The position numbers and the translations under genes were made by a program. The notes below the pieces were generated by a model. The model ran no database searches. It saw nothing but the letters and a program-made list of their open reading frames with translations, and had not been told where the DNA came from. A stretch of DNA of 48,487 bases from Candidatus Moranbacteria bacterium RIFCSPHIGHO2_01_FULL_55_24 (GTDB taxonomy: Bacteria > Patescibacteriota > Minisyncoccia > Moranbacterales > UBA1568). Shown piece by piece: positions 1 through 26,008 of the stretch; positions within the stretch are counted from its first letter, which is position 1, and each line of letters begins with the position of its first letter. The DNA lies in contig MFRW01000004.1 in the NCBI GenBank assembly GCA_001786575.1, positions 1-48,487 of the forward strand, given 5' to 3'.

Positions 1-1121
1 ATAGAGAAGTAAAACCCCAAAATGACGAGTAATCCACCGATTATCCAAAGAAAATGTTCCACGTGGAACATTTTTGGATAAAGATCCTTCATGTTCCACG
101 TGGAACATTGTTTGACTGACCCAAATGTTCCACGTGGAACATTTAATAATTGATTCTGATGTTCCACGTGGAACATTTGATACCATAAATAGCTTATTGA
201 GACTATAAGCGCTATCCACGCACCCTTTGAAAAGCTCAAGAAAAAGACAGCCAGTATCAGAATAAGGCTCAAAATGTTCCACGTGGAACATTTTGTGAGA
301 AATTGTCTTAATGTTCCACGTGGAACATTGTTTGACTGACCCAGATGTTCCACGTGGAACATGGATTTAGTAAGAAAGAAGAGTAATATTACTAAACCGA
401 GAAAGCCTCCTAATATATTCGGATGAAGGAAAAGTCCGTATGGACGCAACATAAATCCTTCATTTAAAGCAATTTTAGCTATTCCAGGATCTGTCCAATA
501 AAAGACTGATTCCCCAAAAATGCTTAATCCAAGCGAAAATCCGGTTATAATTTGGAAAATACCGATGATGCTATTCACCAGAGCTAGGAGAAATAGAGTA
601 TAAAAAGCCCCTTTCATAATGTTCCACGTGGAACATTTTGTGAGAAATTGTCTCAATGTTCCACGTGGAACATTGTTTGACTGACCCAGATGTTCCACGT
701 GGAACATTTTACTATCAATAGTTTTGATCAGGAAAAAGGCAAAAAAGAGTGTACAGGCCTGTATAAGTCTCAAAATGGCATAAAATCCGAGTATCTTATT
801 TTCAGCAAAGAATATGGTAGCTCCAGACAGGGCAATAAAGGCTAGAAGAGCATAAAAGAGTCTCTCATGTTCCACGTGGAACATCTTTTCCCTGTATATT
901 GACAATAACTGTATTTTATTGTTTAATATAAATAGGACAAGAAAACTGGCGAAAAATAGGTCAAAAAGATAGATCGAGACGTCCAGGTATTCGTTATAGC
1001 CAGAAGACAGAGGATTGAAGACAGCAAGAACAATCTGGATGTTCAGAAAGGCTGTAGCGATGAACAGCCAGAAAGAGAGTTTTTCAAACGTTTTAAGAAG
1101 GGGAGAGTCAAGTAATTTCAT
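1..1121 (-). CDS. O-antigen ligase/Wzy-like polytopic membrane protein (3' end outside window) carrying in-frame parS arrays; absent from the ORF track
   Basis: Hand translation from ATG at 1121 (MKLLDSPLLKTFEKLSFWLF...) is open to the window edge (373 codons). About 9 hydrophobic segments and family-type motifs IIGIFQ, SLGLSIFGE..PGIAK, RPYGLFLHPNILGGF and LSFSKGAWIAL, in the same order as the paralog at 18279-19574. Minus-strand TATAAT at 1147-1152. Confidence 0.9.
   Translation of the reverse strand, partial: MKLLDSPLLKTFEKLSFWLFIATAFLNIQIVLAVFNPLSSGYNEYLDVSIYLFDLFFASFLVLFILNNKIQLLSIYREKMFHVEHERLFYALLAFIALSGATIFFAENKILGFYAILRLIQACTLFFAFFLIKTIDSKMFHVEHLGQSNNVPRGTLRQFLTKCSTWNIMKGAFYTLFLLALVNSIIGIFQIITGFSLGLSIFGESVFYWTDPGIAKIALNEGFMLRPYGLFLHPNILGGFLGLVILLFFLTKSMFHVEHLGQSNNVPRGTLRQFLTKCSTWNILSLILILAVFFLSFSKGAWIALIVSISYLWYQMFHVEHQNQLLNVPRGTFGSVKQCSTWNMKDLYPKMFHVEHFLWIIGGLLVILGFYFS
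54..884. repeat. parS: parS (ParB-binding centromere) array: 11 perfect copies of TGTTCCACGTGGAACA
   Basis: 16-bp cores start at 55, 92, 126, 160, 275, 312, 346, 620, 657, 691 and 868. All extend to the 18-bp palindrome ATGTTCCACGTGGAACAT and match the canonical bacterial parS consensus. About 24-26 kb from dnaA/oriC. Confidence 0.93.
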
Positions 1122-1181
1122 GCGATCGGGAAAAGAAATTCCTTTTATTATAGACCATTCCTGGCTGGACCGTAAGGAGCG

Positions 1182-1209
1182 TTGACGAATACCCAAAAGC
1201 CGGTATGAT
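1182..1209 (+). promoter_or_regulatory. sigma70-type promoter for tRNA-Ala
   Basis: TTGACG (1182-1187), 16-nt spacer, TATGAT (1204-1209). Confidence 0.55.
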
Positions 1210-1230
1210 TAGGAGATGCCAGAACCTCAT

Positions 1231-1266
1231 GGGCCTGTAGCTTATCCGCCGGCTGGCGGAGCCTCC
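1231..1266 (+). pseudogene. Degenerate duplicate of the tRNA-Ala 5' end
   Basis: GGGCCTGTAGCTTA (1231-1244) is identical to tRNA-Ala nt 1-14 (1285-1298). It is followed by the hairpin TCCGCC-GGCT-GGCGGA and D-arm-like remnants. Confidence 0.75.
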
Positions 1267-1284
1267 GGGTTCGGCAAGGTAATC

Positions 1285-1357
1285 GGGCCTGTAGCTTAGC
1301 TGGTAGAGCGCCTCCATGGCATGGAGGAGGTCAGGAGTTCGAGTCTCCTCAGGTCCA
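1285..1357 (+). tRNA. tRNA-Ala(GGC)
   Basis: Full cloverleaf; anticodon arm CCTCC-ATGGCAT-GGAGG; TTCGA T-loop; CCA not encoded. Confidence 0.96.
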
Positions 1358-1395
1358 CACAGTCAGATCTTTCAAAAGATAGAGTAATCTTTTCT

Positions 1396-1432: not shown

Positions 1433-2056
1433 ATGAGAGGGATACCTGTATCAAAAGAAGAAATCCTGAAGATAAAGCGCTTGCGCCGAACCGGCCATAG
1501 TCTGCCAGAAATTCGCGCCCTCTTGAATCGGGGCAGCAGCACGGTCTTCAAATACATCCAGGGAGTGGAAGTCCTCCCTCAATACGCGCTTTTTCTTAAA
1601 GAAAAGCAAGGCGGAAGCAAGGCAAGATCCCAAAAACTCTGGGAAAAATCTCGCGAAAAAGTGCGAGAAATTTCTTTTTCTTCTCATAAGAAGGATCTTC
1701 TTCTGCTTATAGCGGGCCTTTATTGGGCAGAAGGAAACAAGAAGGACCTCAATCTTATCAATAGTGATCCTGATCTGGTACGTATTTTTATCCAAGGACT
1801 TCTCAAACTCGGCGTAGAAAAGGATGATCTGCGTATCAGTCTCCGTCTTTATGAGGATATAGATGAACTGGCGGCAAGGAAATTTTGGGCTGAAAAACTT
1901 GATATCGGAATAAAAAAGATAATCAGCATCGACAGGCTAGGTGGCAAGAAAAACGGCAAACTTCCGTATGGAATGTGCCGTGTCCGAGTGGCCAAAGGAG
2001 GTGATTATTTCAAGATTATCATGAGCAGTATTGAACAAATAAAGACCTTGTGGTAG
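1433..2056 (+). CDS. N-terminal HTH plus LAGLIDADG-like (homing endonuclease-related) protein
   Basis: HTH-like start (LRRTGHSLPEIRALLNRGSSTV), helix IAGLYWAEG resembling the LAGLIDADG motif, then NSDPDLVRIF and YGMCRV; a pattern typical of tRNA-adjacent CPR proteins. Confidence 0.7.
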   Translation: MRGIPVSKEEILKIKRLRRTGHSLPEIRALLNRGSSTVFKYIQGVEVLPQYALFLKEKQGGSKARSQKLWEKSREKVREISFSSHKKDLLLLIAGLYWAEGNKKDLNLINSDPDLVRIFIQGLLKLGVEKDDLRISLRLYEDIDELAARKFWAEKLDIGIKKIISIDRLGGKKNGKLPYGMCRVRVAKGGDYFKIIMSSIEQIKTLW

Positions 2057-7999: not shown

Positions 8000-8075
8000 G
8001 GTGGATAACTACCGTATAACTCACTTATCCACCCATATCCACACCGATATTATCAAAAAACTCTGTCCTTCTCAA
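8000..8075 (-). promoter_or_regulatory. tRNA promoter followed by three near-consensus DnaA boxes
   Basis: TTGAGA-17-TAATAT (8047-8075, minus strand); 8/9 boxes at 8000-8008, 8025-8033 and 8035-8043. Confidence 0.55.
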
Positions 8076-24589: not shown

Positions 24590-26008
24590 ATGACTAATGA
24601 GGAACTTTGGAAGGCTGTCTTAGGCCAAATAGAGCTTTCTTTGTCGAAAGCGAATTTTATTACTTGGTTCAAGAATACTTCTCTGGTGGATAACCAGAAT
24701 GGCTTGGTAACCATCGGCGTACCGAATGGGTTTGCGAAAGAATGGCTTGAGAATAAGTATAATATGTACATTCTCAAAGCTTTGAAGAGTCTTGATCCGT
24801 CTGTCCAAGAAATCCGTTGCGCTATCACGCTCCAGAATAAGCCGGGCGCTGCTCCGATCTCTGTGGATTCGGTTCGCAACGTAGATGCGGCGATACCCCG
24901 CGAACAAAGCGGATTTGTGCGGAAGAAAATTATTGAAAAGCCGGTATTCAGCAATACGCCGGGTTTGAATAACCAGGTTTTTCATGAAACAAACTTAAAC
25001 TCCCGTTACACCTTCGAGAATTTTATCGTGGCTGAAAATAACGAACTTGCCCGCGCTGCTTGTTATGCTGTTTCCCAGAATCTCGGCATGGTGTACAACC
25101 CGCTCTTCATTTATGGCGGGGTGGGGCTCGGGAAAACGCATCTCCTCCAATCGATCGGGAATGAAGTGATGAAGGAACATCCGGAAAAGCGCATAAAATA
25201 CATCACTTCGGAACGTTTCACTACAGAGCTCGTCGACTCGATCAAGAACCAGAAAATAGACCTTTTCAAGGAATACTACCAGCAAATGGACCTTCTGATT
25301 ATCGATGACGTGCAGTTCCTCTCGGGCCGCGAAAAGACCCAGAACGAATTTTTCCATATATTCAATGCTCTCTATCAGATAAATAAGCAGATTGTCATAT
25401 CCAGCGATCGGCCTCCGAAAGCCATCGCTACCCTCGAAGAACGCCTGCGTTCGCGCTTCGAAGGAGGGATGATCACTGATATCAGCCGTCCGAGCCTCGA
25501 AACAAGGATTGCGATTCTTCAATCAAAAATCCTTGAAAAAGGCTTTATTATAGATGAAATCACCCTGAAATACATCGCTGAAAAGGTAAATCAGAATATC
25601 CGGGAATTGGAAGGCGCTTTAAACCGGATAATCGCTTATTGCGAATTCCATAAACTTCCGCCGAGTCTTGAAAACACCCAGAAGATCCTCGCCGAACTCA
25701 TCGAGGATAACAAGAAAAACATCCATTCTGATGATGTTTTCCGGGTAATCAGCGATTTTTATGGTGTCGCTAAAGAAGAGTTGATCAAAAAAGGGCGGAA
25801 AAAAGAGATTTCTCACCCGCGCCAAGTAATGATGTATATTCTCCGAAACGAACTCCAAATACCTTTTTCTTCTATAGGAGAGCTTCTGGGAGGTAGAGAT
25901 CATACGACCGCGCTTCATGCATTTGAGAAGATTGAAACACAAAAAGAAAACAATTCACGGTTGAAAGAGGAACTTGATACGTTGCGAGAACGCCTCTATT
26001 ATAGTTAA
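24590..26008 (+). CDS. dnaA: Chromosomal replication initiator DnaA
   Basis: YNPLFIYGGVGLGKTHL, IDDVQF, RL.SRF and GRDHTT motifs; ATG 24590 has AGGAG upstream. Confidence 0.98.
   Translation: MTNEELWKAVLGQIELSLSKANFITWFKNTSLVDNQNGLVTIGVPNGFAKEWLENKYNMYILKALKSLDPSVQEIRCAITLQNKPGAAPISVDSVRNVDAAIPREQSGFVRKKIIEKPVFSNTPGLNNQVFHETNLNSRYTFENFIVAENNELARAACYAVSQNLGMVYNPLFIYGGVGLGKTHLLQSIGNEVMKEHPEKRIKYITSERFTTELVDSIKNQKIDLFKEYYQQMDLLIIDDVQFLSGREKTQNEFFHIFNALYQINKQIVISSDRPPKAIATLEERLRSRFEGGMITDISRPSLETRIAILQSKILEKGFIIDEITLKYIAEKVNQNIRELEGALNRIIAYCEFHKLPPSLENTQKILAELIEDNKKNIHSDDVFRVISDFYGVAKEELIKKGRKKEISHPRQVMMYILRNELQIPFSSIGELLGGRDHTTALHAFEKIETQKENNSRLKEELDTLRERLYYS

What the first reader, a model, noticed from the sequence alone, without database searches (positions are those of the whole stretch)
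54..884. All four parS clusters fall in alternate, same-side loops of the protein: possible transertion-based centromere tethering
Seen: by eye the clusters (1, 3, 3 and 4 sites) sit after hydrophobic segments 2, 4, 6 and 8, and never in odd-numbered loops, including the long loop carrying RPYGLFLHPN. Established: in WaaL-type ligases the functional Arg/His loops face outside, so the even loops would be cytoplasmic. Inference: the inserts are tolerated only on the cytoplasmic face. Co-transcriptional membrane insertion of this protein could also hold the ParB-parS region near the membrane, or ParB spreading could couple glycan-ligase expression to the cell cycle. Both mechanisms are speculative.
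Basis: inference. Interest (0 to 1): 0.8.

Follow-up and report, generated by a model that had tools for sequence, protein, structure and literature searches.

The report
Chromosome centromere written inside a membrane-protein gene
All of this tiny bacterium's chromosome-segregation sites (parS) are written in frame into the inward-facing loops of one membrane enzyme gene near the replication origin, but relatives keep the same site array in non-coding DNA, so a membrane-tethering role for the gene is not needed.

Summary
The window has 11 exact copies of TGTTCCACGTGGAACA at 55-883 (0.08 expected). The 789-kb genome has one more, on the contig that continues the same gene. All 12 lie in frame in one ORF.

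The ORF's full-length form, P0001, models as a 12-helix WaaL-fold protein (Z 24.4 to 7TPG). The clusters of 1, 3, 3, 4 and 1 sites follow helices 2, 4, 6, 8 and 10, so they fill all five cytoplasmic loops and no periplasmic loop.

The sites match the parS consensus. They lie about 24 kb from dnaA, and the genome has a canonical parAB operon. This is the chromosomal centromere.

In 80 related loci, 675 sites lie inside the homologous ORFs and 6 outside. Insertions occur only in cytoplasmic loops. About a third of relatives also carry an insertion-free site in the long periplasmic loop.

The transertion and regulation ideas gain no support. In an even sample of 61 genomes of the order, 24 hold every site inside the gene. 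Another 24 hold the array outside it. Seven arrays lying outside the gene were read (five in this sample, two in other same-genus genomes); none lies in an ORF, and five sit in the same syntenic slot.

Earlier notes of this scan reported the same arrangement in other genomes. I found no paper describing it.

The parts
3..1121 (-). First 373 codons of the host gene, a WaaL-fold / Wzy_C-family 12-helix membrane protein. ATG at 1121. The ORF runs off the window's left end and continues on contig C5:1-486. The full protein has 514 aa and is P0001 apart from one residue.
   Evidence: Wzy_C scores E 9e-5, 22.7 bits, below the Pfam cut-off of 31.7. Foldseek gives 7tpg_B at E 1.8e-5. VIA-align gives Z 24.4 with 368 of 403 residues aligned.
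868..883 (.). parS site 1 in gene order. It is read as MFHVEH and lies in cytoplasmic loop 1, after helix 2.
620..706 (.). Cluster of 3 parS sites (620, 657, 691) in cytoplasmic loop 2, after helix 4. The three sites are read in three different frames: MFHVEH, NVPRGT and CSTWN.
   Evidence: pLDDT is below 50 at residues 143-147 and 162-165.
275..361 (.). Cluster of 3 parS sites (275, 312, 346) in cytoplasmic loop 3, after helix 6.
   Evidence: pLDDT is below 50 at residues 255-269.
55..175 (.). Cluster of 4 parS sites (55, 92, 126, 160) in cytoplasmic loop 4, after helix 8. This cluster interrupts the Wzy_C domain.
   Evidence: pLDDT is below 50 at residues 326-344.
269..362 (.). Reference copy of a 94-nt, three-site cassette. 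The other copies are at 614-707 (98% identical) and 49-142 (88%). This points to recent copying or gene conversion between loops.
   Evidence: family D2.
417..446 (-). Codons for RPYGLFLHPN (residues 226-235) in periplasmic loop 3. R226, H233 and N235 are invariant in 98 homologues. No parS lies here.
1285..1358 (+). tRNA-Ala(ggc), the conserved neighbour that bounds the centromere slot. tRNA-Arg(cct) is at 2069-2141.
24995..25480 (+). Match to the DnaA ATPase domain (dnaA gene), about 24 kb from the array. The cumulative GC-skew minimum lies near 16 kb.

Best explanation
The palindromes are the chromosome's parS sites, where ParB loads, and together they form its only centromere. They are written in frame into the five cytoplasmic loops of a gene for a WaaL-type glycan ligase or polymerase with 12 membrane helices.

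Two selective pressures share the same DNA. Selection for ParB binding keeps the 16-mers exact. Selection on the enzyme keeps the frame open and keeps the periplasmic Arg, Arg and His residues.

The sites sit where they do because the cytoplasmic loops can take extra disordered residues, while the helices and periplasmic loops form the active site. Clusters grow and homogenise by local copying of multi-site cassettes.

The overlap is a tolerated historical arrangement, not a coupling device. Relatives run the same array without any ORF, and they have site-free homologues of the gene.

Shown here: the sequences, their uniqueness, the topology model, the conservation and the two states. Inferred: ParB binding, enzyme activity, and tolerance as the cause.
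For: Identity as parS.
- 12 of 12 sites are exact, and they are the only ones in the genome.
- The sequence differs at one base from the M. xanthus parS consensus TGTTCCACGTGGAACG quoted in PMC3899335 (passages).
- A parA-parB operon is present. Its ParB has ParB_N, HTH_ParB and ParB_C, and scores 191.9 bits on TIGR00180.
- dnaA is 24 kb away and the GC-skew minimum is near 16 kb.

Selection on the DNA.
- The same 16-mer is read in all three frames: 5 MFHVEH, 4 VPRGT and 3 CSTWN.

Topology.
- The AF2 model has pLDDT 83.5 and pTM 0.87, with 12 helices and low confidence only at the inserts.
- The WaaL match has Z 24.4.
- R226, R387 and H431 are invariant in 98 sequences.
- K+R is 15 per 107 residues in the 'in' loops against 5 per 139 in the 'out' loops.

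Family-wide pattern.
- 881 of 907 site peptides in 98 homologues map to the five cytoplasmic loops or to helix ends bordering them. 26 map to periplasmic loop 5 and 0 elsewhere.
- In 80 loci found with non-parS motifs, 675 sites lie inside the ORFs (137,217 bp) and 6 outside (530,509 bp). 78 of 80 loci have at least one site.

Separability.
- Of 61 genomes in the order sample, 24 have every exact site in the gene. Another 24 have none in their homologue but hold 1-13 exact sites elsewhere.
- 7 of 7 arrays read outside the gene lack any ORF of 90 aa or more (L012 has one 97-aa open frame over 2 sites that runs through withheld bases). Five of them have the TSP3 gene and the tRNA-Ala/Arg pair beside them.

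Copying.
- The 94-nt cassettes are 98% identical.
Against: - ParB binding is untested.
- Tolerance explains where sites can lie within the gene. It does not explain why five or six founding events all hit this one gene and none hit the neighbours (no site within 300 bp beyond the ORFs; one one-mismatch match, in L060, about 3 kb away in about 530 kb of flanks).
- It also does not explain why the states are all-or-none.
- The order of events is unresolved. Arrays outside the gene show no relic of the ORF (all E > 0.07). Site-free members sit in both clades of the gene tree.
- The A1 alignment came from a word-based search that favours proteins sharing the parS peptides.
- Only 57 of 80 loci could be mapped by anchors.
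- The model is of P0001, which differs from the window's product at one residue (G in the window, W in P0001, residue 334, by eye).
Confidence: 0.65

Rival explanations
1. Transertion tether. Co-transcriptional and co-translational insertion of the 12-helix protein would hold the ParB-parS complex at the membrane, giving a centromere anchor in cells that lack known polar anchors.
For: The array is inside a polytopic membrane-protein gene in 24 of 61 sampled genomes, and there it is always all of the sites. Passages of preprint 10.64898/2026.07.20.739713 say transertion repositions chromosomal loci. The arrangement is old and conserved.
Against: 24 of 61 genomes keep the array outside the gene, including same-genus relatives. 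All 7 arrays read outside the gene are non-coding, and five have the TSP3 gene and tRNA pair beside them. No expression data exist. Dense ParB occupancy and strong mRNA structure (-47.2 kcal/mol per 3-site cluster) would if anything hinder coupled transcription and translation.
Confidence: 0.08
2. Regulatory coupling. ParB loading, sliding or bridging over the gene body would throttle transcription of the ligase, so that glycan ligation follows the replication and segregation cycle.
For: All ParB loading sites lie within the transcription unit. ParB-dependent repression near parS is reported for P. aeruginosa (title and abstract of PMC5521831, seen in the listing only).
Against: Site-free homologues exist in about half of the sampled genomes, so the enzyme does not need the sites. 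No promoter or expression evidence was obtained.
Confidence: 0.1
3. Escape from conflict. The in-gene state is a burden, and lineages repeatedly separate the two functions into a non-coding array plus a site-free gene. The overlap would then be mildly deleterious rather than neutral.
For: States are all-or-none, with both found within families f1 and f4. The gene tree has two clades, each with SH-aLRT 99, and each genome holds one or the other gene.
Against: The direction of change is not established and no relics were found. The in-gene state is stable across at least ten families.
Confidence: 0.12
4. Not parS. On this reading the palindrome is a mobile or repetitive element (MITE/REP-like), or an assembly artefact at a contig end.
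For: The repeats sit at a contig end, and the contig break falls inside a repeat.
Against: All copies lie in one locus and there are none elsewhere. Contigs of runs from two studies tile 1-1310 without differences. P0001 spans the whole gene on a single 5,658-nt contig. The same arrangement appears in 78 of 80 other species' loci.
Confidence: 0.02

Closest known systems
Dense origin-proximal chromosomal parS clusters, for example Myxococcus xanthus with 22 sites in about 3 kb (PMC3899335, abstract and passages read)
   Same: Many near-identical 16-bp palindromes are packed into 1-3 kb near the origin. The consensus is almost the same (TGTTCCACGTGGAACG). A canonical ParA/ParB pair is present.
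   Different: Here every site lies inside one ORF, in frame and sorted into the cytoplasmic loops of a membrane protein. The density is higher, at 12 sites in about 1.4 kb. The passages I read do not say whether the M. xanthus cluster is coding.
Intragenic parS sites, for example Pseudomonas aeruginosa, where 9 of 10 predicted sites lie in coding sequences (PMC4368675, passages read). B. subtilis parS within spo0J is recalled, not checked.
   Same: parS can overlap a coding sequence and be read as ordinary codons.
   Different: Those are single sites scattered over different genes and fitted into existing codons. Here the whole centromere sits in one gene, mostly as extra residues, and the arrangement is conserved across families of an order.
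WaaL O-antigen ligase (PDB 7TPG; CAZy GT121, PMC10920833 passages)
   Same: The fold has 12 helices, a long periplasmic loop with conserved Arg and His, and an R..G...HPN-type motif. Z is 24.4 over 368 residues.
   Different: Sequence identity is 13%. The Pfam Wzy_C score is below the cut-off. The host lineage (Patescibacteria-type, by the record titles of relatives) is not known to make lipopolysaccharide (recalled), so the acceptor is unknown. About 100 extra loop residues are encoded by parS clusters.
Protein anchors of the ParB-parS complex (PopZ, DivIVA/RacA, HubP; recalled) and transertion of membrane-protein genes (passages in 10.64898/2026.07.20.739713)
   Same: These are ways in which an origin or centromere region can be held at the envelope.
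   Different: Nothing here shows anchoring. The array works in relatives without lying in a translated gene.

Membership tests
Chromosomal parS / ParABS centromere | 16-bp palindrome matching the parS consensus | tested here: met
   TGTTCCACGTGGAACA occurs 12 times. It differs at one base from the M. xanthus consensus quoted in PMC3899335. Relatives use TGTTTCACGTGAAACA.
Chromosomal parS / ParABS centromere | Sites confined to the origin-proximal region | tested here: met
   All 12 sites lie within about 1.4 kb, 24 kb from dnaA. The GC-skew minimum is near 16 kb of the window. The genome is in 11 contigs, so distances to other contigs are unknown.
Chromosomal parS / ParABS centromere | Cognate ParB with a parS-binding HTH, and a ParA ATPase | tested here: met
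   ParB has ParB_N, HTH_ParB and ParB_C, all above cut-offs, and scores 191.9 bits on TIGR00180. Next to it is a ParA-family Walker ATPase whose best match is ParA_partition, below that model's equivalog cut-off.
Chromosomal parS / ParABS centromere | ParB binds the sites and they support segregation | not testable with these tools
   This needs EMSA, ChIP or a partition assay.
Wzy_C / WaaL-type (GT121-like) membrane glycosyltransferase | Pfam PF04932 score above the gathering cut-off | tested here: not met
   P0001 scores 22.7 bits against a cut-off of 31.7, E 9e-5, over residues 285-450, which the 4-site insert interrupts. Many homologues carry a precomputed PF04932 hit.
Wzy_C / WaaL-type (GT121-like) membrane glycosyltransferase | 12-helix WaaL fold | tested here: met
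   The AF2 model has 12 helices. Foldseek gives E 1.8e-5. VIA-align gives Z 24.4, rmsd 5.0, 368 of 403 aligned, well above the next hits (SEDS proteins, Z 12-14).
Wzy_C / WaaL-type (GT121-like) membrane glycosyltransferase | Conserved Arg, Arg and His in periplasmic loops | tested here: met
   R226, R387 and H431 are invariant in 98 sequences. A weak profile match aligns the R...GxGxGQF...HN stretch to 7tpg_B (E 0.64).
Wzy_C / WaaL-type (GT121-like) membrane glycosyltransferase | Ligase or polymerase activity on an undecaprenyl-PP-linked glycan | not testable with these tools
   No assay was possible. Donor and acceptor are unknown.
   In 24 of 61 genomes the array lies outside the homologue. 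All 7 arrays read outside the gene are non-coding, five with the TSP3 gene and tRNA pair beside them.
   This needs imaging with start-codon mutants.

The most novel reading that the evidence does not exclude
The interleaving is adaptive in the lineages that keep it. One version is that making the 12-helix protein physically couples the ParB-parS complex to the membrane. Another is that ParB occupancy, together with the very stable palindrome-derived mRNA structures placed after every second helix, gates or paces synthesis of the enzyme. Either way, one locus would link chromosome segregation to envelope glycan assembly. The strict all-or-none pattern would then reflect two alternative, internally consistent designs. 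In 24 of 24 in-gene genomes every site is inside the ORF.
Probability: 0.12. Interest if true: 0.85.

Novelty: new variant of a known kind. Interest (0 to 1): 0.6.

Why it matters
This is a whole bacterial centromere that is also protein-coding sequence. The same 16 bases must bind ParB and also be readable in three frames as harmless loop peptides. In relatives, a site in the periplasmic helix is fitted in with a Ser codon instead of the Pro codon used in the loops.

It is a clear natural case of dual coding. It shows which parts of a WaaL-fold protein tolerate insertions.

Both forms exist side by side in one order: the array in an ORF, and the array in non-coding DNA. That gives a ready-made comparison for asking whether centromere context matters.

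It also marks the centromere and origin region in a large group of uncultured, ultra-small bacteria.

A practical point is that the repeats break assemblies. The window starts inside the array, and two relatives show sites only at contig ends.

Tried and rejected
- **Family scans.** Pfam on the window's 398-aa fragment gave no family at E 0.01 and only chance-level hits at E 10. NCBIfam found nothing for P0001.
- **First survey.** All 120 listed homologues carry the site peptides, but the candidates were picked by shared 5-mers. I treat that survey as biased and rely on the motif-independent loci.
- **RNA.** No RNA holder is listed, so nothing can be said on expression.
- **Assembly check.** Only contigs were available. 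No single piece spans the array, and the support comes from overlapping pieces.
- **Relics of the ORF.** tblastn with the site peptides masked found no relic in 7 non-coding arrays. All hits had E > 0.07, so the direction of change stays open.
- **The 11 genomes with no exact site.** I checked 5. All 5 have an HTH_ParB protein. 2 of the 5 show parS cores only at contig ends. Many of these 11 are therefore probably unassembled arrays, not losses.
Only two one-mismatch words flank one site. I make no claim from them.
- **Literature.**
  - 'parS' + ParB + 'Candidate Phyla Radiation': 2 irrelevant papers.
  - 'parS' + Patescibacteria: swamped by words that begin with 'pars'.
  - Moranbacteria + ParB: 0 papers.
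  - parS + 'O-antigen ligase' + ParB, whole words: 1 unrelated review.
- **Earlier scan notes.** A look-up by place gave nothing.
- **Considered and rejected.**
  - Peptide-level function of the repeats, because three frames give three different peptides.
  - A Noc-type site or the second ParB_N protein as the binder, because that protein lacks the HTH.
Full report
**1. What is in the sequence**

The window holds 11 exact copies of TGTTCCACGTGGAACA. They start at 55, 92, 126 and 160; at 275, 312 and 346; at 620, 657 and 691; and at 868. Allowing up to 3 mismatches adds no further match. Shuffles give 0.08 expected matches, and 0 of 100 shuffles reach 11. Each site is the core of the 18-mer ATGTTCCACGTGGAACAT.

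A 94-nt unit with three sites occurs three times, at 269-362, 614-707 (98% identical) and 49-142 (88%).

The window is the start of contig C4 of a 789,426-base genome in 11 contigs, rated 99.2% complete. That genome has exactly one more exact site, at C5:315-330, and nothing else within 2 mismatches.

The left end of C4 overlaps the left end of C5 by 62 nt. The minus-strand ORF at window 3-1121 therefore continues at C5:1-486.

A database protein, P0001, has 514 aa and was found on a single 5,658-nt contig. It covers the joined gene. By eye it differs from the window's product at one residue.

Contigs of public runs from two studies tile window 1-1310 with no differences, apart from one C>T in one run. 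The array is therefore not an artefact of this assembly. No single piece spans all of it.

**2. What the palindrome is**

The sequence is the bacterial centromere site parS. It differs at one base from the M. xanthus consensus TGTTCCACGTGGAACG given in PMC3899335 (passages).

The genome has a parA-parB operon on contig C8. Its ParB carries ParB_N, HTH_ParB and ParB_C, all above the Pfam cut-offs, and scores 191.9 bits on TIGR00180. A second ParB_N protein lacks the HTH.

The DnaA ATPase domain maps to window 24995-25480. The cumulative GC skew of the joined C5/C4 sequence has its minimum near window position 16 kb. The array is therefore close to the origin.

The same 16 bases are read in all three frames: MFHVEH five times, VPRGT four times and CSTWN three times. 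What is conserved is therefore the DNA, not a peptide.

**3. The host protein and its topology**

P0001 matches Pfam Wzy_C only weakly, at 22.7 bits against a cut-off of 31.7, because the four-site insert splits the domain.

An AlphaFold2 model was built with 98 homologues. These are 98 of the 120 listed; the 22 left out were all 450 aa or shorter. The model has pLDDT 83.5 and pTM 0.87 and shows 12 long helices. Confidence falls below 50 almost only in the insert segments.

Its best structural match is the WaaL O-antigen ligase 7TPG. Foldseek gives E 1.8e-5. VIA-align gives Z 24.4 with 368 of 403 residues aligned, and the next hits are SEDS proteins at Z 12-14.

[quoted passage not shown] In the alignment R226, H233, N235, R387 and H431 are invariant. 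R387 and H431 lie in the long loop between helices 9 and 10.

With that loop outside, the loops after helices 2, 4, 6, 8 and 10 are inside. The count of K+R agrees: 15 in 107 'in' residues (11 without the site-encoded Arg) against 5 in 139 'out' residues.

The site clusters of 1, 3, 3, 4 and 1 fall after helices 2, 4, 6, 8 and 10. They fill every cytoplasmic loop and none of the six periplasmic loops.

**4. Relatives**

A scan of one genome per species used two protein motifs that are not site peptides (RxYG.F.HPN and QPVHN). It returned 80 loci, all from Moranbacteria/Parcubacteria-type MAGs by their record titles.

The table counts TGTTNCACGTGNAACA with up to one mismatch in those 80 loci.

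| Location | Sites | Bases |
|---|---|---|
| Inside the homologous open frames | 675 | 137,217 |
| Outside them | 6 | 530,509 |

Five of the six outside sites lie next to broken frames. 78 of 80 loci have at least one site, with a median of 8 and a maximum of 18. In one search the best open frame covered at least 99% of the match in 75 of 80 loci.

In the 98-sequence alignment, 881 of 907 site peptides map to the five cytoplasmic loops or to helix ends that border them. 26 map to periplasmic loop 5, and none map elsewhere.

An anchor-based map at the DNA level used 57 of the 80 loci; 23 were dropped because the anchors were not found.

| Interval | Sites |
|---|---|
| Holding cytoplasmic loops 1 and 2 | 153 |
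| Holding cytoplasmic loop 3 | 101 |
| Holding cytoplasmic loop 4 | 102 |
| Holding cytoplasmic loop 5 | 71 |
| Within periplasmic loop 5 | 20 |

The sites in periplasmic loop 5 add no residues. They replace helix residues as NVSRGT, nine residues after the invariant Arg. 18 of the 20 use TGTTTCAC (a Ser codon), whereas the cytoplasmic-loop sites mostly use TGTTCCAC (a Pro codon).

**5. Two states of the centromere locus**

An even draw of 60 genomes of the order, plus this one, was searched with P0001 and with the site pattern. Gene regions were fetched for 40 of them.

| State | Genomes (of 61) |
|---|---|
| Every exact site of the genome lies inside the homologue | 24 |
| The homologue has no site, but the genome has 1-13 exact sites elsewhere | 24 |
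| Sites present, no homologue found with this query | 2 |
| No exact site | 11 |

- **In-gene state.** Of the 24, 15 come and this genome is one more.
- **Outside-gene state.** Of the 24, 16 were shown by fetched regions. The other 8 were shown by comparing the places reported.
- **No exact site.** Of 5 such genomes checked, all 5 have an HTH_ParB protein, and 2 show site cores only at contig ends. Some of these are therefore probably unassembled arrays.

No genome was mixed.

Seven arrays lying outside the gene were read (L011, L012, L018, L020, L101, L103, L104). Four of these genomes are of the same genus as this one and one is of the same family (G013, G006, G070, G014, G031). None lies in an open frame of 90 aa or more, apart from one 97-aa frame in L012 that spans withheld bases. 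Their GC is 20-35%.

Five of them have the orthologue of the TSP3-repeat gene that follows the host gene here (E 2e-41 to 2e-99). Six have tRNA-Ala(ggc) and/or tRNA-Arg(cct) beside them, and three also have rbfA or the DHH gene. These are the neighbours seen in this window.

A tree was built from 41 of these proteins with the site peptides masked. Genomes not fetched as ORFs were left out, and the tool dropped G025. The tree splits into two clades, each with SH-aLRT 99. One clade holds all 18 site-bearing genes plus 7 from genomes without exact sites. The other holds all 15 site-free genes of outside-gene genomes plus one more. Families f1 and f4 appear in both clades.

I could not tell which state came first. 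The non-coding arrays show no relic of the ORF.

**6. How it most likely works**

Shown: the locus is the only set of parS sites in the genome. It is near the origin, a canonical ParAB pair is present, and the ORF is kept open with its catalytic-loop residues conserved.

Inferred: ParB-CTP loads at the 12 sites and forms the partition complex, and the gene still makes a working WaaL-type enzyme. The sites lie in cytoplasmic loops because only there can extra disordered residues be added without harm. Clusters grow by copying cassettes.

The two functions can be separated, since both site-free genes and ORF-free arrays are common. I rate this reading at 0.65.

It does not explain why all founding events hit this one gene, or why the states are all-or-none.

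**7.

Transertion is physically plausible, and loci of induced membrane-protein genes do move (passages in 10.64898/2026.07.20.739713). But the array persists in non-coding DNA in as many genomes as it does in the gene, so the tether cannot be a requirement. I rate it at 0.08.

It is not excluded for the in-gene lineages. The conserved neighbour gene also begins with a hydrophobic stretch that looks like a membrane anchor (by eye; not tested).

ParB-dependent regulation of the ligase is untested, and I rate it at 0.1.

A by-product is worth noting. The mRNA of one three-site cluster folds to -47.2 kcal/mol, z = -8.55.

**8. Comparison and novelty**

Dense parS clusters are known, such as 22 sites in 3 kb in M. 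xanthus. Single intragenic parS sites are also known, such as 9 of 10 in P. aeruginosa (PMC4368675, passages).

What differs here is a whole centromere interleaved in frame with one polytopic membrane-protein gene, sorted by membrane side, and conserved across families.

My searches found no paper on this. Four earlier notes of this scan describe the same arrangement in other genomes.

This is a new variant of a known kind, with interest 0.6.

Noticed in passing
window 1433-2056 (+): A 207-aa ORF with only a weak HTH_38 hit sits between tRNA-Ala(ggc) and tRNA-Arg(cct). In four relatives the two tRNAs are only 47-200 bp apart, so this looks like an insertion. A stretch of it looks LAGLIDADG-like by eye, which I did not test.
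   Followed up: partly
window 1231-1244: A 14-nt exact copy of the 5' end of tRNA-Ala lies 54 nt upstream of the tRNA gene (family D5). It may be a scar of an integration or a duplication.
   Followed up: no
window 41-49, 73-81, 2516-2524, 8000-8043: DnaA-box-like words are enriched in the window, 19 with up to one mismatch against 5.9 expected. Two TTATCCAAA words flank the parS at 55-70. One exact box lies after rbfA, and three lie among the tRNA genes near 8 kb. The origin itself was not located.
   Followed up: partly
window 1-1200: The host gene has 37-39% G+C, against about 53-55% for the contigs. The non-coding arrays of relatives are also AT-rich compared with their surroundings.
   Followed up: no
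L021-L100 (80 related loci): Neighbouring sites up to 70 bp apart are almost never in the same reading frame. Only 9 of 282 spacings are multiples of three, against 173 with remainder 1 and 100 with remainder 2. Peaks fall at 37, 41 and 49 bp. This is not corrected for shared descent.
   Followed up: partly
L038, L099, L093; arrays of G025, G053, G068: Some genomes use TGTTTCACGTGAAACA at every site instead of TGTTCCACGTGGAACA. L038, for example, has 14 of 14. The whole array switches variant together, which suggests concerted evolution or co-evolution with ParB.
   Followed up: no
L101, L103, L018 (non-coding arrays of same-genus genomes): Non-coding arrays show regular spacings of 109-118 bp and 54-58 bp, as if built by tandem duplication. 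The in-gene arrays are spaced instead by pairs of helices.
   Followed up: no
G000:C4:71461-71706 (L008:1390-2352): This is a second protein with a ParB_N domain, 320 aa long. It has no HTH_ParB and no other Pfam domain. Its role is unknown.
   Followed up: partly
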